Assembly (NCBI GenBank): GCA_028699085.1
Contig: JAQVVF010000002.1
Span: 132,557 to 196,556 of the forward strand
DNA: 64,000 nt
Direction: 5' to 3'
Source: Patescibacteria group bacterium
Lineage (GTDB): Bacteria > Patescibacteriota > JABMPQ01 > JAQVVF01
Below, piece after piece: positions 5,287 through 36,528 of the stretch (within the stretch, counting starts at the first letter, position 1; every line of letters begins with the position of its first letter). Both the position numbers and the translations under genes were made by a program. Below the pieces are notes generated by a model. That model did no database searches. It saw only the letters and a program-made list of their open reading frames with translations, and was not told the DNA's origin.

Positions 5287-6801
5287 TTATATTCTTGGAA
5301 ATAAAGCTTGAGCCTTTTTTACCTGCAAATCTAAGTCAAAACGTTTCCATTTTTTCAATTTTGCATATTCTAATTTACTTTCTTCATCCCACATTGAGAA
5401 TTGTGTCAAAATATTTTCTGCTGTCTCTGGTAAAAATGGATAAATCATCCAAGCGATATGCCTGATTATTTCGATTAAGTTACACAATACTAAAGCGCAT
5501 TTTTCATCATCTTTTCCAAACAATTCCCATGGTTTTTCAACTGATATATATTCATTAGCAAATTTTACTAAACTGAAAGTAGTTTTCAAACTCTGATCAA
5601 TTTTATTTTCTTCCATAAACTTTTCATAATTCTTCCAAGCATTAGTAACTAACCTAACCACTTCTTTATTCTCTAACACCTTTCCTTTGCATTTCTTCAA
5701 ATCCAATTTCAAATACATTGCCGTAACTCTGCTCACCAAATTTCCTAAACCATTTGCTAAATTAGCATTAAATTGTTCATCAAATTTCTCTGCCTTTACA
5801 TCGCCATCTTGTCCAAAAGGAAATTGAGAGATAATTAAAAATCTTGCTGCATCAGATCCATATTTTTTTACTAAATCATTTGGATCAATCACATTGCCAA
5901 TCGTCTTGCTCATTTTCTGGCCATTCACTGTAAAATAACCATTTGCAAAAATATGCTTTGGAACTGCCAGCTTTGCTGCTAACAACATTGCCGGCCAATA
6001 AATTGCATGAAATTTTATAATATCCTTGCCCATCAAATGTAAATCTGTTGGCCAATATTTTTTAAAATTTGCATCATTAGAGCTTCCATATCCCAAAGCA
6101 GTAATATAATTTGATAATGCATCTACCCAAACATAAATTACTTGGCTTTCGTCCCAAGGCACTTTTATTCCCCATGCTACTTTTTCTCGAGAAACTGAAA
6201 AATTTTCTAATTCCTGCTTAAATAACCCCAATACTTCGGATCTGATATTCTCTGGCTCAATTTTTATCTTATCTTTTTCAATTAACTCCTGTACTTTCTT
6301 GGCATACTTATCAAGTTTGAAAAAATAATTTTTTTCCGAAATTTTGTCAGGACAAATTTTATGATCAGGACATTTACCATCAACTAATTCTTTTTCAGTC
6401 AAAAACTTTTCACAACCAGTACAATATAATCCTTCATACGATCCTTCATAAATTGCATCTGCTTCTCTCAATTTTTCAATAAATTTCTTAGCTCCAATTT
6501 CGTGTCTTTGATCCGTTGTTCTTATAAAATCATTATTGGAAATATTCAATGCATCCCAAAGTGAAGTATATAAAGCAGAAATTTCATCACAAAATTGTTT
6601 TGGAGTTTTGCCTACTTTTTCAGCAGATTTTGCTACCTTTGCCCCATGTTCATCTGTTCCTGTTAAAAAAAATACTTCATCACCAATAAAACGATGATAT
6701 CTCGCTAAAATATCAGCTGCAATCGTTGTATAAGCATGACCAAGATGCGGCTTATCATTTACGTAATAAATTGGTGTTGTTATATAAAATTTCTTTATCA
6801 T
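5287..6801 (-). CDS. metG: methionyl-tRNA synthetase
   Basis: TTPIYYVNDKPHLGHAYTT (HLGH), KMSKTIGNVIDP, zinc knuckle CTGCEKF...CPDHKICP. Confidence 0.95.
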   Translation of the reverse strand: MIKKFYITTPIYYVNDKPHLGHAYTTIAADILARYHRFIGDEVFFLTGTDEHGAKVAKSAEKVGKTPKQFCDEISALYTSLWDALNISNNDFIRTTDQRHEIGAKKFIEKLREADAIYEGSYEGLYCTGCEKFLTEKELVDGKCPDHKICPDKISEKNYFFKLDKYAKKVQELIEKDKIKIEPENIRSEVLGLFKQELENFSVSREKVAWGIKVPWDESQVIYVWVDALSNYITALGYGSSNDANFKKYWPTDLHLMGKDIIKFHAIYWPAMLLAAKLAVPKHIFANGYFTVNGQKMSKTIGNVIDPNDLVKKYGSDAARFLIISQFPFGQDGDVKAEKFDEQFNANLANGLGNLVSRVTAMYLKLDLKKCKGKVLENKEVVRLVTNAWKNYEKFMEENKIDQSLKTTFSLVKFANEYISVEKPWELFGKDDEKCALVLCNLIEIIRHIAWMIYPFLPETAENILTQFSMWDEESKLEYAKLKKWKRFDLDLQVKKAQALFPRI

Positions 6802-17217: not shown

Positions 17218-20200
17218 CTATTTCTTAACACCAATCCAACCTTCCTCTTTGCCTACCTTTGCTTCCTTGCCTAAATCAACTTCCTTTTTGCCTTCTTCTA
17301 ATTCAGTTGCTAAAGTCTCTTTCTTAATATAATCATCAAACTGGTGGCAAACTTTTTTACCCTTTTCACCCATTTCAAAACATACTTTAATCCTATCAGC
17401 AATCTGATAGTCAGCTTCCTTACGCATTGATTGAATTTGCCTTACAACTTCACGAGCCAGACCTTCTAATTCTAGCTCTTCAGTCAATTCAGTCTGCAAA
17501 GAAACTACAACATTACCATCGCCTTCAACTTCAAAGCCTTTTTCTTTAGAAATATATTTCTTCTTATTCTTTTTCTCTTTCACCTCAAAATCAATCTTCT
17601 CTACAAATTCAATATTTTTTACATTCAACTCATCTTTCAAGATATCTATCAAATCGTCCGAAATTTTTAATTTTTCATTTTGAATTTTTAATTTCGCCAA
17701 AGGTTGTCTTGCTTTCATTTGCGCTTTTGCCCTTGCAGCTAATCCTAATTTTGCAATTGTCCTTGTTAAATCCATTTCATTATTCAATTCTTCATCAATT
17801 AAATCAACGTCAGCCTTTGGATAATCACACAAGTGCACACTTCCGACTTCTGAAGGTCCGACGCTCTGACGCTCTAAATTCAAATAAATTTCCTCAGTCA
17901 CAAAAGGCACAATTGGCGCTAACAATTTTACAAAACTTATCAAAACAGTATATAGAGTTTGATAAGCCTGATTCTTGTCTTGATCATTCTCACTCTTCCA
18001 AAATCTTCTTCTTGATCTTCTTACATACCAATTAGCCAAATCATCCAAAAATTTCTCACATTTTTCCATTACACGCTGGGCATTAAATTTATCCATTTCT
18101 TTAGTGCATTCAACAATCAAAGCATTCAAAGCAGAGACAATCCACTGATCAAGTTTATTGTTCAGTTCTAATTTGCTATTTTTAGCTGGTTTAAAATTAT
18201 CAATGTTCGCATATAACACAAAGAAAGAATAAACATTCCACAACAAAATTAATTTACGCCTAATTGCTTCTGCAGGTCTATAACCAAATCTAAGATTATA
18301 AGCAGGATTCTGTACGCAATACATCCACCTCATTACATCAGCTCCCATTTTTTCAGCTGCTTCGTCAAACCAAATCGCATTACCAGAAGATTTATGCATT
18401 GGCTTACCTTTTTCATCTCTTACTTCTTCATAAGCTAGTACTTGCTTATATGGTATCTCATCTTCCAAGGTTACAGCCATGAATAATAATGAATAAAACC
18501 ATAATCTTACTTGAGCGCGCATTTCACATACAAATTCAGCTGGAAACCATTTTGCCCAATATTCTTTATCGCTAAAATATTTTAGCGTTGAGAAAGGCAC
18601 AATTCCAGCATCAAGCCAGCAATCTCCAACATCTTTAATTCTTGATACTTCTTTTTTACATTTTGGACAAACAATCGAAAGCTCATCAATCCAAGGACGA
18701 TGCAACTCTGGAACAATTTTTCCATTTTCTAAAATATTAATTTCATGAGCTTTTGCATTTTGCGCCATCACCTTCATGACATTTCTAATCTTACCTTTCT
18801 TTTCGATTACTTTTTCTAACCCAGCTAACACTCCATCATGAGTAACAATAACAACTGTTTGCCCATTATGTTTTTCTAATATTTCTCCATAAAAATCTTG
18901 GCATCTTAATAAAATATCTTTAGTGCTTTCACCAATTTCTCCAGCTTTTTTATCATTTACGCTATCGTAAACTTCTATTAACTCTTTTTTAAATAGTGAT
19001 ACTTTTTTATTAGCCCAATTACCAAAATCGTGCTCTCTTAAACGTTCATCTTCAACCAAATCTACACCGCACAATTTTGCTACCTTTTCTGCCGTTTTTT
19101 TACAACGAATATATGGAGAAGTATAAACAATATCAATGCCTCTCTCTTTCATCTGTTTCGCTAACAAAGTAGCTTCTTCTTCGCCTTTCCAATCCAAATC
19201 AGTACCAAGATCCTTACTATCAGTAATTCCCATCACATTGCCTTCGCTTCTACCATGTCTAGATAAAATTATATTAGTTGATTGCTGGTTTGATAATTCT
19301 AAAAGCTCTTTTCTTGATTGAATAGCTGTCACTTCACCACATTCACATTCATAAAAAGGCAATGGCAATCCCCAATAACGTTTACGAGAAATAACCCAAT
19401 CACCCATATTATCAAGCCAATCTTGCATTCTTTTGCCTACTGATTCAGGCAACCAACCAACCTTTTCTGCAGCTCTTTTCATCGGTTCTCTGATTTCCGA
19501 AACATCAATAAACCATTCGGAAACTGCTCTAAACACTAATTCCTCCTTGCATCTCCAACAAAATGGATAGCGATGTTTAATGTCAGCAATTTTCAAAAAA
19601 TTGCCTTTTTCTTTTAATGAAGAAAAAATTTCATTCTTAATTCCGTGAACATTTTTTTTGTTCAACCAATCAAAACCTTCTATGTAATTACCAAACTCAT
19701 CAATTGGCGCGATAATCTTCAAATCATTAGTTTTTGATAATTGATAATCTTCCTCACCACATCCAGGTGCAATATGTACAATGCCAGTACCTTCAGCATC
19801 AGAAACATCTTCCCAAGCAATAACTTTATGTTCAACGCCTGACTGAACAGGTAATTCATCAAATGGTCCTTCATAATGCAAACCTAATAAACTCTTGCCA
19901 TCAACTTCCTCCATAATTTCTGCTTCACCCAAAACTTTTGAAACCAAAGCTTTAGCCAAAATATACGTCTCACTGTCTTTCGTTGCTCTAACATATTTTA
20001 CCTTAGGATTTACAGCCAAGGCTACATTTGCTGGCAATGTCCAAGGAGTCGTTGTCCAAACCAAGAAATATTCATTAATTTCAGCTTCTTCACTTTTTCT
20101 TTTTAATTTAATATAAACTGCCTGATGAACTACTTCTTTCCAACCATCATCTGACAATTCATGCTGAGATAATGCTGTCCCACATCTTGTACACCAAGGC

Positions 20201-20736
20201 ATCACAGAATAACCTTTGTATAACCAGCCATTTCTTTTACATTTTTCTAAAAAAGTCCAGATTGCCTCAATATTATCATCAGTATATGTATAATAAGAAT
20301 TTCTCCAATCCATGAATTGACCCAATCTTTTTGATTGTTCAGTTTGAATTTCTGAATATTTCTCAATTCTTTCTTTGCATGCTTTAGAAAAATTATCCAA
20401 ACCAAATTTTTCAATTTCTTTTTTTGAATTAAAGCCTAAATCTTTTTCCACTTCAACTTCCACCCAAAGTCCCTGGCAATCAAAACCATTTTGCCATCTT
20501 TGATCAAATCCTTGCATCGCTTTATATCTCTGAAAAACATCTTTCAATGTTCTACCCCACGCATGGTGCACTCCCATTGGGTTATTAGCAGTAATTGGAC
20601 CATCAATAAAAGACCAAGGCTCTTTGCCATGATTTTTATTCTGCAATTTATAAAACATTCTATTCTCATTCCAAAAATCAAGAACATTATGCTCTAATTT
20701 CACGAAATCTTGTTTTGGGTCTACTTTTTTAAACAT
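17218..20736 (-). CDS. ileS: isoleucyl-tRNA synthetase (type 2) carrying an inserted histidine-phosphatase (PGAM-family) domain
   Basis: 1172 aa; IleRS hallmarks WVISRKRYWGLPLP, DCWLDAGIVPFS, tRNA-binding C-terminus. Between YECECGEVT and ELHRPWIDELSIVCPKCKK, aa ~472-688 encode LSRHGRSEGN...TSPYIRCKKTAE...VTHDGV (RHG catalytic motif of histidine phosphatases). HIGH region reads GVHHAW, KMSKS reads PMHKS. Confidence 0.9.
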   Translation of the reverse strand: MFKKVDPKQDFVKLEHNVLDFWNENRMFYKLQNKNHGKEPWSFIDGPITANNPMGVHHAWGRTLKDVFQRYKAMQGFDQRWQNGFDCQGLWVEVEVEKDLGFNSKKEIEKFGLDNFSKACKERIEKYSEIQTEQSKRLGQFMDWRNSYYTYTDDNIEAIWTFLEKCKRNGWLYKGYSVMPWCTRCGTALSQHELSDDGWKEVVHQAVYIKLKRKSEEAEINEYFLVWTTTPWTLPANVALAVNPKVKYVRATKDSETYILAKALVSKVLGEAEIMEEVDGKSLLGLHYEGPFDELPVQSGVEHKVIAWEDVSDAEGTGIVHIAPGCGEEDYQLSKTNDLKIIAPIDEFGNYIEGFDWLNKKNVHGIKNEIFSSLKEKGNFLKIADIKHRYPFCWRCKEELVFRAVSEWFIDVSEIREPMKRAAEKVGWLPESVGKRMQDWLDNMGDWVISRKRYWGLPLPFYECECGEVTAIQSRKELLELSNQQSTNIILSRHGRSEGNVMGITDSKDLGTDLDWKGEEEATLLAKQMKERGIDIVYTSPYIRCKKTAEKVAKLCGVDLVEDERLREHDFGNWANKKVSLFKKELIEVYDSVNDKKAGEIGESTKDILLRCQDFYGEILEKHNGQTVVIVTHDGVLAGLEKVIEKKGKIRNVMKVMAQNAKAHEINILENGKIVPELHRPWIDELSIVCPKCKKEVSRIKDVGDCWLDAGIVPFSTLKYFSDKEYWAKWFPAEFVCEMRAQVRLWFYSLLFMAVTLEDEIPYKQVLAYEEVRDEKGKPMHKSSGNAIWFDEAAEKMGADVMRWMYCVQNPAYNLRFGYRPAEAIRRKLILLWNVYSFFVLYANIDNFKPAKNSKLELNNKLDQWIVSALNALIVECTKEMDKFNAQRVMEKCEKFLDDLANWYVRRSRRRFWKSENDQDKNQAYQTLYTVLISFVKLLAPIVPFVTEEIYLNLERQSVGPSEVGSVHLCDYPKADVDLIDEELNNEMDLTRTIAKLGLAARAKAQMKARQPLAKLKIQNEKLKISDDLIDILKDELNVKNIEFVEKIDFEVKEKKNKKKYISKEKGFEVEGDGNVVVSLQTELTEELELEGLAREVVRQIQSMRKEADYQIADRIKVCFEMGEKGKKVCHQFDDYIKKETLATELEEGKKEVDLGKEAKVGKEEGWIGVKK

Positions 20737-20801
20737 ATTGACAAAAATTAATTAATATGATAAAATTTATATAGTTCTTTCAAGAGAAAAGGAGACAAGA
20801 A

Positions 20802-21056
20802 ATGAAAAAATCACTCAAAAAAATTTTTTGGATAGTAATAACAACATTTCTTTTGATAGCCTCTTTAACACATTTCTCAATTGTACTATATGCAATAATC
20901 ATGATTTTTTTACCTTCTACTAATATTCTTGCCATAGAGATTATAACAATCTTTTGCTTAATCAACGGTTTATTCTGTTTATACTTTTCCAAACTTTTTG
21001 CTTCTCATTTCCAGATCATTCCTCAAAAAAGAATAACGCACTTACTTTACCACTAA
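20802..21056 (+). CDS. hypothetical small membrane protein
   Basis: 84 aa, two hydrophobic helices; own sigma70-like promoter TTGACA-17-TAAAAT (20738-20766), SD AAAAGGAGA and a downstream terminator; lies between ileS and the PGAM gene on the opposite strand. Confidence 0.45.
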   Translation: MKKSLKKIFWIVITTFLLIASLTHFSIVLYAIIMIFLPSTNILAIEIITIFCLINGLFCLYFSKLFASHFQIIPQKRITHLLYH

Positions 21057-21066
21057 CGTGGTTTTT
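21043..21066 (+). terminator. rho-independent terminator (plus strand)
   Basis: Hairpin ACCACtaacGTGGT followed by TTTTTTT. Confidence 0.5.
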
Positions 21067-21642
21067 TTATTTAATTATAAAAGTCTGCACATCATTATAA
21101 TCAATGTCTTCCTGTCTAAAATACTCTTCGATACTGCAATCATTCAAAACCTTATAAATCGCTGCATTAATTCCACCATGACTAACAATCAAAATATTTT
21201 TATCAGAATATTCGTTCTTAATTTTTTCAACAAATTTCCTTACTCTTTCTACGATTTCTTTTCTTGACTCTCCAGTTCTTCCTAATTTAAAATTATATCT
21301 TTCTTCTCCAGGTTGCATTCGTCTATACCTACGATAATCTTCATCATTTTCTAGCAACTCTTTTTTTGTTCTATCATTCCATTCTCCATAATCATATTCC
21401 GAAACTAAAGGATCTATTACAATTTTTACATTAAACTTTTTATTCAAAATATCAGCAGTCTCACGCGCTCTCAAAACCGGCGAAGTAATAATTAAATCAA
21501 TTCTGTCTTTTATTTTCTTGGTCAATTCATTAACTTCCCTTCTTCCTTTCTCAGTTAACGGGAATTTATCTAGACTACAAGATTTAACATCTAAAGTATT
21601 CTTCTCGCTTTCTCCATGTCTAACAAAAATTAGTTTAATCAT
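21067..21642 (-). CDS. histidine phosphatase (phosphoglycerate-mutase family) protein
   Basis: MIKLIFVRHGESEKN (RHGE), TSPVLRARETA, EYDYGEWN, IVSHGG; start refined to ATG at 21642 (the track's 21654 start is a TTG); first gene downstream of the T-box leader. Confidence 0.8.
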   Translation of the reverse strand: MIKLIFVRHGESEKNTLDVKSCSLDKFPLTEKGRREVNELTKKIKDRIDLIITSPVLRARETADILNKKFNVKIVIDPLVSEYDYGEWNDRTKKELLENDEDYRRYRRMQPGEERYNFKLGRTGESRKEIVERVRKFVEKIKNEYSDKNILIVSHGGINAAIYKVLNDCSIEEYFRQEDIDYNDVQTFIIK

Positions 21643-21652
21643 AACTATTTCC

Positions 21653-21880
21653 AAAAATAAAAACCCTCATACAGAGGGCGATTAAATTCGCGGTACCACC
21701 TCAATTCAATATTAAATATTAAATATTCAATATTCTTATTTAAAAGCTATTACGGGCTTACCCGTACAGATCTAATTGCTAAAAACTTTAGCTTTCTTCT
21801 GTCAACTAATCTGGCGATAACCAGACTCAAACGTTTTTTAATTTACAGCTTTATTCTACCAGAAATACAAATTTTGTCAA
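21653..21880 (-). promoter_or_regulatory. T-box riboswitch leader (promoter, compact Stem I, Stem III, T-box antiterminator, terminator) upstream of PGAM gene / ileS
   Basis: Minus-sense 5'-TTGAGGTGGTACCGCGAATTTAATCGCCCTCTGTATGAGGGTTTTTATTTTT-3' (rc of 21653-21704). Antiterminator helices GAGG/CCTC and GCGA/TCGC with the 7-nt bulge TGGTACC. Terminator GCCCTC-tgtat-GAGGGT plus U-run. Promoter TTGACA (rc 21875-21880), 16-nt spacer, TAGAAT (rc 21853-21858). Hairpin TCTGG-uuAUCg-CCAGA (rc 21810-21825) carries AUC in its loop. Stem III ACGGGtaagCCCGT (21749-21766). Confidence 0.72.
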
Positions 21881-21912: not shown

Positions 21913-24162
21913 ATGATCAAAAAAATCACTCTCAACATTTTTGGCATGCATTGCGCCTCTTGCGCAGCCAACATTGAAAATGCCTTAAAAAAAGAGCCAG
22001 GCATTATTAGCATTAATATAAATTATGCTAATGAAAAAGCTCTTCTTGAAATTGACGACAGCAAAATTAATGTGCAAAAAATTCAAGAAAAAATCATCGA
22101 ACTTGGCTACAAATCTGAACAAGAAAAAATGGAACATCAAGGTCACGGCTATCATTCCCATGCTGATGTTGAAAAAAAATCAGAAATTAACAAACTAAAA
22201 AATCAATTCATCTTTTCTTTAATTCTAGGCTTGCCTCTTATTTATATCGCAATGGGCGATCTTCTTGGTCTTCCAATCCCAACATTTTTTGAAAATTATT
22301 TAATTTATATCGAATTTATTTTAGCAACTGCAGTTATTATTGTTTGTTTCAAAATTTGGATTCAAGGCTTTAAAGCATTATTCAGATTTCAGCCTGACAT
22401 GGACTCGTTAGTCTTTATCGGTACAGCAACTGCCTATTTTTATAGTTTGATAGTTTCTATTATCTCTTTAACAAACAAAAACTTTCAAATGTCTGAGCTT
22501 TATTATGAAAGTTCTGTTTTTATATTAATCTTTATTACTTTAGGAGACTATTTAGAAACAATTACAAAAGGCAAAACAAGCGATGCAATAAAAAAATTAA
22601 TCGGCTTAAGTCCAAAAGAAACAACAATTATTAAAAATAATCAAGAAATAAAAATCAAAACGCAAGATGTTGAAGTTAATGATATTATTTTAATCAGGCC
22701 TGGCGAAAAAATTCCAGTCGACGGCATTATTACCAAAGGCTTTTCAACAATTGATGAAAAAGCAATCACTGGAGAAAGCATTCCTGTTGAGAAAAAACAA
22801 GGCGACAAAATTATCGCTGGAACAATTAACAAAGCTGGCAGTTTTCAATTTCAAGCTACAAAAGTTGGTAATGATACAATGCTTTCTCAAATTATTCGAA
22901 TCGTTGAACAAGCTATGGGTTCAAAAGCACCAATCCAAGAGCTTGCTGACAAAGTTTCCTTCTATTTCGTACCAGTTGTTATTATAGTCGCAATTATTGC
23001 ATTAATTATTTGGCTAATTGCCGGACACACTTTAGCTTTTTCTATAACCATTTTTGTTGCTGTATTAATTGTTGCCTGTCCTTGCGCATTAGGCTTAGCA
23101 ACTCCAGTTGCAGTTATGATGGGAACAGGCCTTGCAGCTTCCAATGGAATTTTAATTAGATCTGGAAAAGCATTAGAGATTGCCAACAAAATAAATATGA
23201 TCGTTTTCGATAAAACTGGGACTCTAACTTTAGGAAAATTAAAAGTTCAAAATATTATCCAAAATCCAAAGCATGATTTTTCAATAGAACAAATTACAAA
23301 AATTGCTAGTTCAATTGCTCAGTTTTCCAACCATCCAATTTCCAAAGCAATTATTGATTACGCAAGATCAAAGCAAATTAAGTTAGATGAATTTAATAAT
23401 TTTAAAGAAATTCAAGGCAAAGGTGTTATTGCCTTTTGTCCAACTCATGACCTGCCAGCTCTAGTTGGCAATACAAAAATGCTCGCTGATCAAGGTCTGG
23501 ATACAACATGGGCAGATTCAATTAATAAAAAATATGCTCACAAAGGAATTGTTGTCTTTGTCGGTCACCATGATAAAGAAGTAATGGGTGCAATAATAAT
23601 TGCCGATGAAATTCGAAAAGAAACTCCTGACGTAATTTCAAAATTTAAAAAAATGGGAATTAAAATCGCCATGATCACTGGCGATAATAAAGAAACGGCA
23701 AATAATATTGCCCAACAAATTGGTATTGATGAAATTTCTGCGGAAATTTTGCCACAAGACAAATTGCAAGAAATCAAAAATTTGCAACAACAAGGAAATG
23801 TTGTTGCTATGGTTGGAGATGGTATTAATGATGCCCCAGCCTTAGCTCAAGCTAATCTAGGAATTGCTTTGGGCTCTGGCACAGATGTTGCAATTGAAAC
23901 TGGCGAAATTATTTTAATTAAAAATGATTTAAGAGACGTATTAAAAGCAATTGATCTAAGTAGTTATACCCTAAAAAAAATAAAACAAGGATTATTTTGG
24001 GCCTTTATCTATAATATCATTGGCATTCCGATCGCAGCCGGAATTTTATACCCATTTACAGGTTGGCTTTTGAGTCCAATGATTGCAGCAGCTGCCATGG
24101 CTTTTTCATCTGTCAGTGTTGTCTTAAATGCCTTATTAATGAAAGGTTATAAAAATAAATAG
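21913..24162 (+). CDS. copA: heavy-metal (Cu+) translocating P1B-type ATPase
   Basis: N-terminal HMA domain GMHCASCAANIE; CPC motif in TM6 (ACPCALGLATP); DKTGTLT; GDGINDAP; 749 aa; no SD, with TATAAT about 8 nt upstream of the ATG (possibly leaderless). Confidence 0.9.
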   Translation: MIKKITLNIFGMHCASCAANIENALKKEPGIISININYANEKALLEIDDSKINVQKIQEKIIELGYKSEQEKMEHQGHGYHSHADVEKKSEINKLKNQFIFSLILGLPLIYIAMGDLLGLPIPTFFENYLIYIEFILATAVIIVCFKIWIQGFKALFRFQPDMDSLVFIGTATAYFYSLIVSIISLTNKNFQMSELYYESSVFILIFITLGDYLETITKGKTSDAIKKLIGLSPKETTIIKNNQEIKIKTQDVEVNDIILIRPGEKIPVDGIITKGFSTIDEKAITGESIPVEKKQGDKIIAGTINKAGSFQFQATKVGNDTMLSQIIRIVEQAMGSKAPIQELADKVSFYFVPVVIIVAIIALIIWLIAGHTLAFSITIFVAVLIVACPCALGLATPVAVMMGTGLAASNGILIRSGKALEIANKINMIVFDKTGTLTLGKLKVQNIIQNPKHDFSIEQITKIASSIAQFSNHPISKAIIDYARSKQIKLDEFNNFKEIQGKGVIAFCPTHDLPALVGNTKMLADQGLDTTWADSINKKYAHKGIVVFVGHHDKEVMGAIIIADEIRKETPDVISKFKKMGIKIAMITGDNKETANNIAQQIGIDEISAEILPQDKLQEIKNLQQQGNVVAMVGDGINDAPALAQANLGIALGSGTDVAIETGEIILIKNDLRDVLKAIDLSSYTLKKIKQGLFWAFIYNIIGIPIAAGILYPFTGWLLSPMIAAAAMAFSSVSVVLNALLMKGYKNK

Positions 24163-34595: not shown

Positions 34596-35142
34596 TTATT
34601 GATTATTGGTTATTTCTTTCCACGGGGGGTGTCAAGCTTCGCTAAAGAGCGTAGTTTAAAAAATTCATGTAGAGTCGCAAGATACTCTCTAAACTTCTTG
34701 CATATTATAAGTGCAAACTTATTATCAAAGGTTTCTGAAAAAGTAAAAGCTTTTGCTCAATCTTTTTCATTTCAACCTTCAACTGTAATCGCTTAATACC
34801 CGATTACCATCCATCCCGCTAGATTCGTGTGTGGGAATTGGGTGTCATTTTACGAACGTAGATTATCTCTCGCCTTAGAGATAATTGAAAATTATAATGG
34901 CTTTGAGTAATAAATATTTTTTTGGTTTAAAGTTTATTATTCGAGACAACCAAAACCAGATAAACTTGTAAAAGTTTTTTAAGCAAACTTTTTACACATG
35001 GGTGCAATTCCCATCACCTCCACCATCTGAACAAAATAATCAATAATCAATTTCCAAATAATATTCAATAATCAATAACCAAATTTCAAACTTTTTAATT
35101 ATTGATAATTGGTTATTTACTGATTATTGATTATTGGTTATT
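34596..35142 (+). repeat. exact 19-nt direct repeat TTATTGATTATTGGTTATT flanking ssrA (34596-34614 and 35124-35142) plus inverted partial copies (35035-35050, 35067-35084, 35097-35118)
   Basis: Read directly from the sequence; family of TTATTGATTATTGG-like units on both strands around the tmRNA gene. Confidence 0.55.
34625..35025 (+). ncRNA. ssrA: tmRNA (ssrA), one-piece
   Basis: 5' acceptor strand GGGGGTG pairs with 3' CACCTCC (G3:U70) followed by encoded ACCA; T-arm ATGGGTGCAATTCCCAT resembles GGTTCGAnTCC; lies directly downstream of smpB. Candidate tag frame GCT(34749) TTT GCT CAA TCT TTT TCA TTT CAA CCT TCA ACT GTA ATC GCT TAA (34794-34796) gives (A)FAQSFSFQPSTVIA, preceded by an A-rich stretch as in E. 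coli. Confidence 0.8.
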
Positions 35143-36394: not shown

Positions 36395-36412
36395 TAGACT
36401 TATTAAAAAATT

Positions 36413-36513
36413 AAAGGGGTAAAAAAATATTTTTTATGAATGATGCATGTCCAAAGTTCCGCTTTAGTGGAACAAGTTACAGAATGAATAAAAAATAATT
36501 TTTTACCCCTTTT
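36413..36513 (+). repeat. long-range inverted repeat (AAAGGGGTAAAAAA / TTTTTTACCCCTTT) enclosing a 20-codon mini-ORF and an inner hairpin
   Basis: Arms 36413-36426 and 36500-36513; inner ATG 36436...TAA 36498 encodes MNDACPKFRFSGTSYRMNKK; inner hairpin GTTCCgctttagtGGAAC (36456-36473). Confidence 0.4.
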
Positions 36514-36528
36514 AAAATAAGCAAAATT

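What the first reader, a model, noticed from the sequence alone, without database searches (positions are those of the whole stretch)
21653..21880. Canonical T-box riboswitch with ultrashort Stem I upstream of a histidine-phosphatase gene and ileS
The minus-sense leader contains the T-box antiterminator GAGG-[UGGUACC]-GCGA-auuuaa-UCGC-CCUC. Its 3' half overlaps a terminator hairpin (GCCCUC-uguau-GAGGGU) followed by a U-run. Upstream lie a TTGACA-16-TAGAAT promoter and a Stem III hairpin. The only plausible Stem I is a short hairpin, UCUGG-uuAUCg-CCAGA, that places an Ile codon AUC plus purine in its loop; such ultrashort Stem I architecture has been described for actinobacterial ileS T-boxes. 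The UGGU bulge predicts pairing with an A73 discriminator, which tRNA-Ile has. The first gene after the leader is not an aaRS but a free-standing PGAM-family histidine phosphatase. ileS follows 330 nt further on, with an opposite-strand small gene in between. If this organism is a Patescibacterium, T-box regulation there would be noteworthy in itself.
Basis: partly seen in the sequence, partly recalled or inferred. Interest (0 to 1): 0.85.

Follow-up and report, generated by a model that had tools for sequence, protein, structure and literature searches.

The report
Terminator-type ileS T-box with hairpin-only Stem I
This is a real tRNA-sensing "T-box" RNA switch for isoleucine in an ultrasmall (Patescibacteria) bacterium; it matters because it pairs a minimal tRNA-reading hairpin, so far described only for translation-blocking switches of Actinobacteria, with a transcription terminator, and because here it first switches on a phosphatase gene that sits ahead of the isoleucyl-tRNA synthetase gene.

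Summary
On the minus strand, 21880-21653 contains:
- a TTGACA-16-TAGAAT promoter;
- a 6-bp hairpin with AUC in a 6-nt apical loop;
- Stem II with an S-turn;
- a Stem IIA/B pseudoknot;
- Stem III;
- the T-box antiterminator GAGG[UGGUACC]GCGA...UCGCCCUC;
- an overlapping terminator followed by a U-run.

Rfam's T-box model matches end to end (56.2 bits, E 1.5e-9 for the whole window). It stays below the gathering score of 93 because 75 Stem I positions are replaced by 7 nt.

I collected 15 distinct leaders of this architecture (a tentative 16th is L038, candidate division WWE3). They come from the window's clade, Saccharibacteria, Dojkabacteria and unnamed metagenome contigs.
- All keep NNAUCN in the loop.
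- All lie upstream of ileS.
- All carry a terminator hairpin plus a U-rich tail.
- 15 of 22 tested base pairs covary.

The phosphatase gene is a variable accessory. Close relatives have T-box-ileS, T-box-phosphatase-ileS, or a deleted phosphatase remnant, and the T-box is intact in every case.

The IleRS of this clade itself carries a histidine-phosphatase domain inserted in its catalytic core.

Verdict: a genuine tRNA-Ile-sensing transcription attenuator, and a new variant of a known kind. The papers I could search link ultrashort Stem I only to translational control, and none describes T-boxes in Patescibacteria.

The parts
21853..21880 (-). Sigma-70-type promoter TTGACA-16-TAGAAT (TG-extended -10). 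The inferred transcription start is near 21846.
   Evidence: 11 of 12 matches. The promoter is identical in relatives L001 and L002 and conserved in L087, L089 and L090.
21809..21826 (-). Ultrashort Stem I: GUCUGG-UUAUCG-CCAGAU. The specifier AUC (Ile) is at 21818-21816, followed by the purine G at 21815, in a 6-nt apical loop.
   Evidence: 75 Stem I model positions are replaced by 7 nt; the loop is NNAUCN in 15 distinct leaders; the four inner stem pairs are 100% paired, each through two to four different standard pair types.
21766..21802 (-). Stem II with an S-turn. Base helix ACAGA/UCUGU, S-turn halves (A)GAA and UUAGA, distal helix GCUAAA/UUUAGC.
   Evidence: the base helix is GUGAA/UUCAC in L087, so four pairs change on both sides. 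[quoted passage not shown] The window has U where the bulged G usually sits.
21744..21765 (-). Stem IIA (CGG-GUAAGC-CCG inside ACGGGUAAGCCCGU) and the proposed IIB pseudoknot AAGC/GCUU (3' half at 21747-21744).
   Evidence: for the hairpin; all 13 leaders have a loop-to-downstream complement. The automatic search returned several registers. My hand reading places a complement 5-7 nt after Stem IIA in every one, with sequences that differ between subgroups but stay complementary. In the window it is only 4 bp and not significant on its own.
21708..21734 (-). Stem III hairpin (AT-rich, 12 bp in the minimum-energy fold).
   Evidence: In relatives it is replaced by unrelated but still hairpin-forming sequence.
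21674..21706 (-). T-box sequence and antiterminator: AAUU-GAGG[UGGUACC]GCGA-AUUUAA-UCGC-CCUC. The UGGU of the bulge would pair with the tRNA 3' end ACCA.
   Evidence: GGUGGUACC is invariant in 15 leaders. The outer helix covaries, with AU, GC and GU pairs. The antiterminator alone scores -7.5 kcal/mol.
21653..21679 (-). Intrinsic terminator GCCCUC-UGUAU-GAGGGU plus UUUUAUUUUU. Its 5' arm is the 3' strand of the antiterminator.
   Evidence: terminator scan; -10.1 kcal/mol; -9.5 kcal/mol. Relatives have an equivalent hairpin of different sequence (L087 and L089: CGCCCU...AGGGCG; other lineages: about 50-nt hairpins of -24 to -31 kcal/mol).
21067..21642 (-). First gene of the leader: a free-standing 191-aa histidine phosphatase (His_Phos_1, PGAM-like) with the catalytic RHG, R, E and H residues present.
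   Evidence: PF00300, E 1.2e-38; no NCBIfam equivalog cut-off is reached; the nearest solved relatives are PspA and CobC. NCBI accession MDD3887508.1.
20738..21062 (+). Opposite-strand cassette: promoter TTGACA-17-TAAAAT (20738-20766, overlapping the ileS start codon), an AAGGAG ribosome-binding site, an 84-aa hydrophobic ORF (20802-21056) and a terminator (21049-21062).
   Evidence: It is conserved at 88% identity in L089, where the two 3-nt indels in the aligned stretch keep the reading frame and one 1-nt indel does not. There is no Pfam or NCBIfam hit.
17218..20736 (-). ileS: a 1172-aa type-2 IleRS with a His_Phos_1 domain inserted at about aa 481-676 (window 18709-19296). It is the constant downstream gene of this leader in all relatives.
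   Evidence: TIGR00392 at 756 bits, above its cut-off; the insert replaces residues 477-486 of P. megaterium IleRS2 (8C8W). for the relatives.

Best explanation
The element is a functional T-box riboswitch that senses tRNA-Ile and works by transcription attenuation.

Proposed mechanism:
1. Transcription starts near 21846 from the TTGACA/TAGAAT promoter.
2. [quoted passage not shown]
3. The anticodon GAU of tRNA-Ile pairs with AUC.
4. If the tRNA is uncharged, its 3' ACCA pairs with UGGU in the 7-nt bulge. This holds the antiterminator (21702-21674) together, and RNA polymerase reads on.
5. If the tRNA is charged, the more stable terminator (21679-21663 plus the U-run) forms and transcription stops before 21642.

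In this genome, read-through first produces a free-standing histidine phosphatase. By inference it then continues across a convergently transcribed small membrane-protein gene into ileS, because no minus-strand terminator or good promoter lies in between.

What is shown: the anatomy, its conservation and covariation, the invariant Ile codon, and the link to ileS.
What is inferred: tRNA binding, termination and read-through in vivo, and transcript continuity to ileS.

The phosphatase gene is an accessory member of the operon. Relatives have lost or never had it while keeping the T-box. Its presence next to an IleRS that carries a paralogous phosphatase domain suggests, but does not show, a shared function connected with tRNA-Ile charging.
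For: - Rfam T-box model matched over positions 1-219: 56.2 bits, E 1e-11 and E 1.5e-9 for the whole window. It is the only T-box in the window.
- The fold has z = -3.6.
- Terminator -10.1 kcal/mol against antiterminator -7.5 kcal/mol, sharing the segment GCCCUC. The terminator scan flags it.
- Close relatives keep the leader at 95% identity directly in front of ileS (L001-L003).
- More distant clade members keep Stem I, the S-turn, Stem IIA and the T-box. They replace distal Stem II, Stem III and the terminator with different sequence that still pairs.
- 15 distinct ultrashort leaders:
  - 90% of pair cells are standard pairs;
  - 15 of 22 pairs change on both sides;
  - the covariation score is 0.633 against 0.26 in shuffles (0 of 500 reach it) and at most 0.133 in slid controls.
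- The loop is always NNAUCN, and an IleRS ORF follows in all of them.
- All 15, plus the tentative L038 (16 scored), have a hairpin starting in the antiterminator 3' strand followed by a U-rich tail, at -8 to -31 kcal/mol.
[quoted passage not shown] The window has one extra nucleotide.
- Between the phosphatase stop and the ileS start there is no minus-strand terminator. The best minus-strand promoter scores only 9 of 12.
- In L089 the phosphatase gene is deleted down to its last ~45 nt, yet the T-box is intact. This argues that the leader still serves ileS.
Against: - No experiment, transcript map or tRNA-binding data exist.
- The Rfam score is below the gathering threshold.
- The window's terminator stem is short: 6 pairs including one G-U.
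- The 3' half of the expected K-turn is degenerate in this clade (UUAG or CAAG instead of UGAG or GGAG).
- The bulged G of the S-turn is U in the window.
- A strong opposite-strand promoter (11 of 12) fires against any read-through to ileS.
- Published work holds that co-transcriptional T-boxes need the tRNA-elbow contact of a long Stem I for fast binding (PMC7583486).
- No tRNA-Ile gene was available to check the anticodon or A73.
- Two more distant IleRS relatives with the same phosphatase insert lack the T-box (L004, L005).
Confidence: 0.8

Rival explanations
1. The T-box is functional but in this genome controls only the phosphatase gene. On this view ileS has been uncoupled by the inserted convergent gene and is transcribed from its own weak promoter.
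For: A strong plus-strand promoter (TTGACA-17-TAAAAT, 11 of 12) and a terminator flank the 84-aa ORF between the phosphatase gene and ileS. A 9-of-12 minus-strand promoter-like site lies at 20783-20754. Convergent transcription would hinder read-through.
Against: There is no minus-strand terminator between 21067 and 20736. In L001-L003 the same leader directly precedes ileS. In L090 and L091 the phosphatase gene and ileS are 37 nt apart. In L089 the phosphatase gene is deleted but the T-box is kept intact upstream of the same antisense cassette and ileS. That is hard to explain if the leader no longer served ileS. The 9-of-12 site is within the number expected by chance (8 sites found, 7.1 expected).
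Confidence: 0.2
2. The switch acts on translation, as in Actinobacteria. The hairpin after the T-box would be a sequestrator of the ribosome-binding site rather than a terminator.
For: All ultrashort Stem I T-boxes described in the papers I could read are translational.
Against: The hairpin GCCCUC/GAGGGU is followed by UUUUAUUUUU. It ends 20 nt before the ATG and contains no Shine-Dalgarno sequence next to the start codon. In the other lineages the hairpin is a 50-nt stem of -24 to -31 kcal/mol with a U-rich tail, well upstream of the start codon.
Confidence: 0.05
3. The element is a decaying relic, or a chance resemblance to the T-box consensus, and has no function.
For: The Rfam score is below the gathering threshold. 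Stem I is almost entirely missing. Some related IleRS loci have no T-box (L004, L005).
Against: E is 1.5e-9 for the whole window. Paired positions are kept through compensatory changes, while loops and distal helices are replaced. The AUC and UGGUACC motifs are invariant in 15 leaders from several lineages. The promoter is conserved.
Confidence: 0.03
4. The specifier is not Ile. The overlapping triplet UCN (Ser) or UAU (Tyr) in the loop is read instead.
For: In the loops NNAUCN, the triplet UCN is always a serine codon (UCG, UCA, UCU).
Against: The third position of UCN varies, whereas AUC is invariant. The base after UCN is the first stem base and is a pyrimidine, while AUC is followed by A or G in 14 of 15 leaders. 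UAU is absent from L069, whose loop is CAAUCU. The downstream gene is IleRS in every case. The bulge UGGU calls for an A73 discriminator, which from general knowledge fits tRNA-Ile and not tRNA-Ser (G73). [quoted passage not shown]
Confidence: 0.02

Closest known systems
Actinobacterial ileS T-boxes with short or 'ultrashort' Stem I (Mycobacterium tuberculosis, M. smegmatis, Nocardia farcinica; Sherwood et al. 2015; TBDB 'class II')
   Same: - The regulated gene (ileS) and the specifier (AUC) are the same.
- The codon is mounted in the apical loop of a hairpin-only Stem I, with no tRNA-elbow platform.
[quoted passage not shown]
- The discriminator is the same (Stem III plus the UGGN bulge).
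- The codon-to-S-turn spacing is the same in the CPR relative L077.
   Different: - The expression platform differs. Here, and in all 15 relatives, it is an intrinsic terminator with a U-run, not a helix that sequesters the Shine-Dalgarno sequence.
- The host is Patescibacteria, not Actinobacteria.
- The bulged G of the S-turn is U in the window.
- The first downstream gene here is a phosphatase.
Canonical transcriptional T-boxes (Rfam RF00230; Bacillus subtilis tyrS type; the Chloroflexota ileS leaders seen here)
   Same: - The T-box sequence is the same.
- There is a 7-nt bulge antiterminator competing with a terminator plus U-run.
- Stems II, IIA/B and III are present.
- The logic is the same: uncharged tRNA gives read-through.
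   Different: - The distal two thirds of Stem I are missing: the specifier internal loop, the AG bulge and the distal loop that dock the tRNA elbow. That is 75 of 219 model positions.
- The score therefore falls to 36-56 bits against a gathering score of 93.
- The Chloroflexota ileS leaders fetched in the same scan keep the long Stem I with the AGAGA and GGUGNRA motifs.
Aminoacyl-tRNA synthetases with extra inserted or appended domains (for example NCBIfam NF040702, 'isoleucine--tRNA ligase, N-acetyltransferase domain-containing')
   Same: An otherwise complete IleRS carries an additional enzymatic domain.
   Different: - Here the extra domain is a branch-1 histidine phosphatase.
- It is inserted inside the catalytic core, between the two CxxC halves of a zinc knuckle.
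- No NCBIfam model or searched paper covers this architecture.

Membership tests
T-box leader (Rfam RF00230) | The conserved T-box sequence forms the 5' side of an antiterminator with a 7-nt bulge UGGNACC. | tested here: met
   AAUUGAGGUGGUACCGCGA at 21706-21688. Model positions 190-219 are aligned with high posterior probability. GGUGGUACC is invariant in 15 relatives.
T-box leader (Rfam RF00230) | A mutually exclusive terminator (or sequestrator) shares the 3' strand of the antiterminator. | tested here: met
   The terminator at 21679-21663 uses GCCCUC of the antiterminator. It scores -10.1 against -7.5 kcal/mol and is flagged by the scan. An equivalent hairpin is present in all 16 leaders scored (the 15 plus the tentative L038).
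T-box leader (Rfam RF00230) | A specifier codon in Stem I matches the amino acid of the regulated gene and is followed by a purine. | tested here: met
   AUC followed by G, at 21818-21815. AUC is invariant. The next base is A or G in 14 of 15 leaders. An IleRS gene is downstream in all.
T-box leader (Rfam RF00230) | Score at or above the curated gathering threshold (93 bits). | tested here: not met
   56.2 bits. Relatives score 36-54 bits. The shortfall comes from the deleted Stem I.
T-box leader (Rfam RF00230) | A long Stem I with a specifier internal loop and a distal platform (AG bulge plus distal loop, the interdigitated T-loops) that docks the tRNA elbow. | tested here: not met
   75 model positions are replaced by 7 nt. 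Only 18 nt lie between the flanking K-turn-like loop halves.
T-box leader (Rfam RF00230) | A K-turn (GA motif) at the base of Stem I. | tested here: inconclusive
   The 5' half, UGA, is present. The 3' half is UUAG in the window, against UGAG or GGAG in other lineages. Only the AG is conserved.
T-box leader (Rfam RF00230) | Binding of cognate uncharged tRNA stabilises the antiterminator. | not testable with these tools
   This needs in-vitro transcription or binding assays. Even the tRNA-Ile gene is absent from the window and from the fetched loci.
Short-Stem-I ileS T-boxes of Actinobacteria (translational, 'class II') | Hairpin-only Stem I with the specifier in the apical loop. | tested here: met
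   A 6-bp stem and the 6-nt loop UUAUCG. The inner four pairs are 100% paired, with compensatory changes. The feature is as described in PMC7583486.
Short-Stem-I ileS T-boxes of Actinobacteria (translational, 'class II') | Stem II S-turn (5' GAA, 3' GUAGA) and Stem IIA/B pseudoknot supporting the codon-anticodon helix. | tested here: met
   GAA at 21796-21794 (the GAA of GAAGAAAG) and UUAGA are present, with the bulged G replaced by U. The review reports only a 2.4-fold defect for G67U. Stem II pairs covary. Pseudoknot complements were found in 13 of 13 leaders, with differing sequences. The window's own pseudoknot is only 4 bp.
Short-Stem-I ileS T-boxes of Actinobacteria (translational, 'class II') | The expression platform sequesters the Shine-Dalgarno sequence (translational control). 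| tested here: not met
   The alternative hairpin is followed by a U-run and ends 20 nt before the ATG, with no Shine-Dalgarno sequence inside it.
Histidine phosphatase superfamily, branch 1 (PF00300) | Domain match, plus the catalytic RHG histidine, two arginines, the glutamate and the second histidine. | tested here: met
   Free-standing protein: E 1.2e-38, with motifs VRHGES, SPVLRARETA, EYDYGEW and SHGG. IleRS insert: E 1.1e-32, with motifs SRHGRS, SPYIRCKKTA, EHDFGNW and THDG. No specific subfamily cut-off is reached.

The most novel reading that the evidence does not exclude
There are two linked readings.

(a) Patescibacteria carry a widespread, so far undescribed class of T-boxes that decide co-transcriptionally without any tRNA-elbow contact. 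This would break the accepted link between a long Stem I and transcriptional control.

(b) In this clade the switch also induces a free-standing histidine phosphatase that works with an IleRS carrying a paralogous phosphatase domain in its catalytic core. That would add a new accessory activity to the response to uncharged tRNA-Ile. One possibility is removal of a blocking phosphate from the tRNA 3' end, from IleRS itself, or from an adenylate-like inhibitor.

The probability below is for (a) and (b) both being true. Reading (a) alone I put at about 0.6.
Probability: 0.15. Interest if true: 0.85.

Novelty: new variant of a known kind. Interest (0 to 1): 0.62.

Why it matters
1. Current reviews explain the long Stem I of transcriptional T-boxes by the need for fast tRNA capture before the polymerase reaches the terminator. 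They treat the ultrashort Stem I as an adaptation to slower, reversible translational control. A natural family of ultrashort leaders wired to terminators gives a direct test of that idea. It also provides compact (about 170 nt) transcriptional tRNA sensors for engineering.

2. Regulation in Patescibacteria is almost uncharted. These organisms cannot make amino acids, so a sensor of tRNA-Ile charging is one of the few identifiable nutrient-sensing devices they have.

3. Every member found scores 36-56 bits against a gathering score of 93. Standard Rfam-based annotation will therefore miss the class, and a dedicated model is needed.

4. An unexplained enzyme combination is attached to an essential synthetase: a T-box-controlled phosphatase next to an IleRS with an inserted phosphatase domain. 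This architecture occurs in at least nine clusters at 50% identity.

Tried and rejected
- **Rfam at gathering threshold.** It reports only the tmRNA and no T-box. The permissive scan was needed.
- **The 330-nt gap between the phosphatase gene and ileS.** I scanned 20650-21150 for a second leader and found only chance-level hits.
- **More distant IleRS relatives with the same insert.** L004 (71% identity) and L005/L006 (Peregrinibacteria, 57%) have no T-box.
- **GTDB genome scan with IleRS.** It returned no close relative of this genome; the best segments were 60-63% identical. Close relatives came only from exact-protein look-ups.
- **A possible conserved ~220-aa partner gene.** Such a gene sits next to phosphatase homologs in several loci. 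The proteins are unrelated to each other, so I dropped the lead.
- **Phosphatase homologs not next to ileS.** They have no T-box.
- **A class-specific covariance model.** I used regular expressions, MAFFT and pair counting instead.
- **MAFFT register for Stem IIA/B.** MAFFT could not put it in register across subgroups, so the pseudoknot was scored by script. Individual pseudoknots are not significant against shuffles.
- **tRNA-Ile genes.** None was found in the window or in ten loci.
- **The GC-rich motif of the Stem II inserts.** It is not enriched in the window.
- **Papers not held.** Sherwood 2015 and 2018, Battaglia 2019 and Vitreschak 2008 were unavailable. What I say about them rests on reviews that cite them.
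- **The first two terminator-scoring scripts.** One picked internal stems and one crashed. Only one search is used.
Full report
**1. The observation**

Read on the minus strand, 21880-21640 holds the following, in order.

| Element | Coordinates | Sequence / note |
|---|---|---|
| Promoter | 21880-21853 | TTGACA, 16 nt, TAGAAT; 11 of 12, TG-extended |
| Stem I | 21826-21809 | GUCUGG-UUAUCG-CCAGAU |
| Stem II | 21802-21766 | long hairpin |
| Stem IIA | 21765-21752 | ACGGGUAAGCCCGU |
| Stem III | 21734-21708 | AT-rich hairpin |
| Antiterminator | 21702-21674 | GAGG-UGGUACC-GCGA-AUUUAA-UCGC-CCUC |
| Terminator | 21679-21663 | GCCCUC-UGUAU-GAGGGU |
| U-run | 21662-21653 | UUUUAUUUUU |
| Start of first gene | 21642 | ATG |

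- Rfam's default scan of the window finds only a tmRNA.
- With permissive thresholds the T-box model RF00230 matches from its first to its last position at 21840-21671. The score is 56.2 bits, with E = 1e-11 on 451 nt and 1.5e-9 on the whole window against all 4227 families.
- The score is under the gathering value of 93 for one reason: 75 model positions of Stem I are replaced by 7 nt.
- The leader folds better than all 200 shuffles (-51.3 against -37.5 +/- 3.8 kcal/mol). The minimum-energy fold contains the same hairpins.
- The terminator (-10.1 kcal/mol) is more stable than the antiterminator alone (-7.5) and uses its 3' strand. That is the usual T-box logic.

**2. The surroundings**

- The first ORF after the leader (21642-21067) is a 191-aa branch-1 histidine phosphatase (PF00300, E 1.2e-38).
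- It reaches no specific NCBIfam cut-off. Its nearest solved relatives are phosphoserine phosphatase PspA and CobC.
- The plus strand carries a complete small-gene cassette:
  - promoter TTGACA-17-TAAAAT at 20738-20766, whose -35 overlaps the ileS start codon;
  - an AAGGAG ribosome-binding site;
  - an 84-aa hydrophobic ORF at 20802-21056;
  - a terminator at 21049-21062.
- ileS (20736-17218) follows. It is a type-2 IleRS (TIGR00392 at 756 bits, above its cut-off).
- Unexpectedly, the IleRS contains a second His_Phos_1 domain at residues 489-670 (E 1.1e-32).
- Alignment to P. megaterium IleRS2 (8C8W) shows that about 196 residues replace residues 477-486. This is between the CxxC halves of a zinc knuckle in the catalytic core.
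- The free and the inserted phosphatase are 32% identical. Both keep the catalytic motifs.
- On the minus strand between 21067 and 20736 there is no terminator. The best promoter-like site scores 9 of 12, which is within the chance expectation.
- NCBI lists the contig's proteins under 'Patescibacteria group bacterium'.

**3. Close relatives**

Exact-protein look-ups gave contigs whose IleRS falls in the same 90% cluster. The leader is present and intact in all of them. What follows it differs.

| Locus | Arrangement after the T-box |
|---|---|
| L001-L003 | ileS directly; leader 95% identical including the promoter; ATG 28 nt after the model match |
| L090, L091 | phosphatase, 37 nt, ileS |
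| L087, L088 | phosphatase, two opposite-strand ORFs, ileS |
| L089 | last ~45 nt of the phosphatase gene, the same opposite-strand cassette (88% identity), ileS |

- The phosphatase gene is therefore a variable passenger, and ileS is the constant target.
- The space between them accepts insertions.
- Keeping an intact T-box in L089, where the phosphatase is gone, argues that read-through still serves ileS.
- Within the clade the conserved blocks are Stem I, both S-turn halves, Stem IIA and the T-box.
- Distal Stem II, Stem III and the terminator are replaced by other sequence that still pairs. Examples are the Stem II base ACAGA/UCUGU becoming GUGAA/UUCAC, and the terminator GCCCUC/GAGGGU becoming CGCCCU/AGGGCG.

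**4. Wider relatives**

- A GTDB scan with IleRS gave 80 loci. A motif search found T-box cores upstream of ileS in several of them.
- In Chloroflexota these leaders have the canonical long Stem I.
- In Saccharibacteria (L077) and Dojkabacteria (L060, L069), Rfam again deletes 74-76 Stem I positions and scores 36-50 bits.
- A WWE3 locus (L038) has a similar leader by eye. It gave no Rfam hit, so I treat it as tentative.
- One metagenome scan used a pattern joining the S-turn and the T-box. It returned further ultrashort leaders, along with canonical ones and chance matches.
- In total there are 15 distinct ultrashort leaders. Each has:
  - a 4-6 bp hairpin with a 6-nt loop NNAUCN;
  - an IleRS ORF (type 1 or type 2) as the next gene, or the phosphatase followed by IleRS;
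  - a hairpin starting in the antiterminator's 3' strand followed by a U-rich tail, at -8 to -31 kcal/mol (which also scored the tentative L038).
- Pair counting on their alignment used 22 pairs of Stem I, Stem II and the antiterminator:
  - 90% of cells are standard pairs;
  - 15 pairs change on both sides;
  - the covariation score is 0.633 against 0.26 in shuffles (0 of 500 reach it);
  - slid controls reach at most 0.133.
- The Stem IIA loop has a downstream complement in 13 of 13 leaders. The automatic search returned several registers. By hand I read a complement 5-7 nt after Stem IIA in each. The sequences differ: AAGC/GCUU, AGUAA/UUACU, GGUAA/UUACC, AGACUU/AAGUCU, AUUGAU/AUCAAU, GGUCU/AGACC and GAUCU/AGAUC. 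Each is too short to be significant alone.

**5. Mechanism**

The anatomy is that of the short-Stem-I decoding module described for actinobacterial ileS T-boxes:
- the codon sits in an apical loop;
- the S-turn purines brace the codon-anticodon helix;
- the IIA/B pseudoknot is present (PMC7583486).

The spacing from the codon's C to the S-turn GAA in L077 equals the N. farcinica numbering quoted there. The window has one extra nucleotide, and a U at the bulged-G position, where that review reports a mild 2.4-fold defect for G67U.

This module is joined to a standard discriminator, and then to an intrinsic terminator rather than a Shine-Dalgarno sequestrator.

- The best explanation is transcription attenuation governed by the charging state of tRNA-Ile(GAU), with UGGU pairing to ACCA.
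- I hold this at about 0.8.
- Read-through reaching ileS in this particular genome is an inference, at about 0.6-0.7. The rival is that the convergent cassette uncouples ileS.
- A Ser (UCN) reading of the loop, translational control, and a decayed relic are each unlikely, for the reasons given under the rivals.

**6. Comparison with what is known**

[quoted passage not shown] They state that intermediate or ultrashort Stem I's belong to translational T-boxes, mostly of Actinobacteria, and they build kinetic arguments on this.
- TBDB searched its short-Stem-I model only in Actinobacteria, plus class I hits with a truncated Stem I.
- No searched paper combines T-box with Saccharibacteria. The few papers that mention both riboswitches and Patescibacteria do not describe T-boxes.
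- The element fails two membership criteria of the canonical family (gathering score, long Stem I) and one of the actinobacterial class (Shine-Dalgarno sequestration), while working like both.
- I therefore file it as a new variant of a known kind.
- Caveat: Sherwood 2015 and Vitreschak 2008 could not be read. An earlier mention of terminator-linked short leaders cannot be excluded.

**7. The phosphatase**

- The free-standing phosphatase has about 25 relatives of 45-81% identity, all from metagenomes or Patescibacteria.
- One relative (55% identity) again lies two genes upstream of a 1215-aa IleRS with the phosphatase insert.
- Others are not near ileS and have no T-box.
- A full HMMER search with the inserted domain finds many 1150-1240-aa proteins with the domain at residues ~495-720. 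All eight tested are IleRS2-type enzymes.
- No searched paper mentions isoleucyl-tRNA synthetase together with histidine phosphatase.
- The function is unknown. A role tied to tRNA-Ile charging is suggested only by repeated gene linkage and co-regulation.

**8. Verdict**

- Observation: confirmed.
- The element is a genuine, conserved tRNA-Ile T-box attenuator of unusual architecture.
- Interest: 0.62.
  - For: it is a clear, testable exception to a textbook structure-function rule; it is the first regulatory RNA of this kind that I can document in Patescibacteria; and it carries an unexplained enzyme association.
  - Against: all evidence is computational, and the family itself is well known.

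Noticed in passing
window 18709-19296 (-), inside ileS 17218-20736: The IleRS carries a complete His_Phos_1 domain (about 196 aa, catalytic motifs intact). It is inserted between the two CxxC halves of a zinc knuckle in the catalytic core. The architecture recurs in at least nine 50%-identity clusters of IleRS2-type enzymes. It is covered by no NCBIfam model and by no paper I could find.
   Followed up: partly
window 20738-21062 (+): An opposite-strand cassette lies between the phosphatase gene and ileS. It has a strong promoter whose -35 overlaps the ileS start codon, an AAGGAG ribosome-binding site, an 84-aa hydrophobic ORF with no family match, and its own terminator. It is conserved in L089 (the two 3-nt indels keep the frame; one 1-nt indel does not) and would transcribe head-on against T-box read-through.
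   Followed up: partly
L089 4556-4610 compared with window 21067-21110: In relative GCA_964574655.1 the phosphatase gene is deleted down to its last ~45 nt, directly after an intact T-box terminator. In L001-L003 the whole phosphatase-plus-antisense cassette is absent.
   Followed up: yes
L004 about 5961-5978 and 5780-5850: A 71%-identical IleRS locus has no T-box. It keeps a hairpin GUCUGG-CAUUCG-CCAGG 40 nt before ileS whose arms match the window's Stem I, followed by GGAGG and a 2-codon mini-ORF. GC-rich tandem hairpins (GCCUGCCUGUCGGCAGACAG, twice) lie upstream. Whether this is a remnant or a different device is unknown.
   Followed up: no
L087 3085-3170; L089 4335-4420: GC-rich hairpin inserts of about 90 nt (CUGCCUUCG...GGCAGGCAGG, CCUCCGCC-AUGG-GCGGAG) sit in the distal part of Stem II of the T-box in two relatives, within otherwise 30-35% GC genomes. 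The motif is not enriched in the window.
   Followed up: partly
window 34625-35025 (+): Rfam finds a full-length tmRNA (104.7 bits, E 7.5e-40). ARAGORN reports no tRNA or tmRNA anywhere in the 64-kb window.
   Followed up: no
window 36407-36514 (-): There is a sub-threshold Rfam match to Plastid-psbA-2 3'UTR RNA (40.4 bits against a gathering score of 55.8, E 2e-4). It is probably a structured hairpin or terminator and was not examined.
   Followed up: no
L077 3760-3917; L069 3757-3922; L060 1393-1558; L097, L112, L124, L128, L153, L190, L194: All ultrashort ileS T-boxes found score 36-56 bits against Rfam's gathering score of 93, so default annotation misses the whole class. In Saccharibacteria- and Dojkabacteria-type leaders the terminator is an unusually long hairpin of about 50 nt (-24 to -31 kcal/mol).
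   Followed up: partly
window 21913-24162 (+): A copper-type P1B ATPase (HMA + E1-E2 ATPase + hydrolase domains) is transcribed divergently. It starts 33 nt beyond the T-box promoter's -35, and this neighbourhood is conserved in most clade relatives.
   Followed up: no
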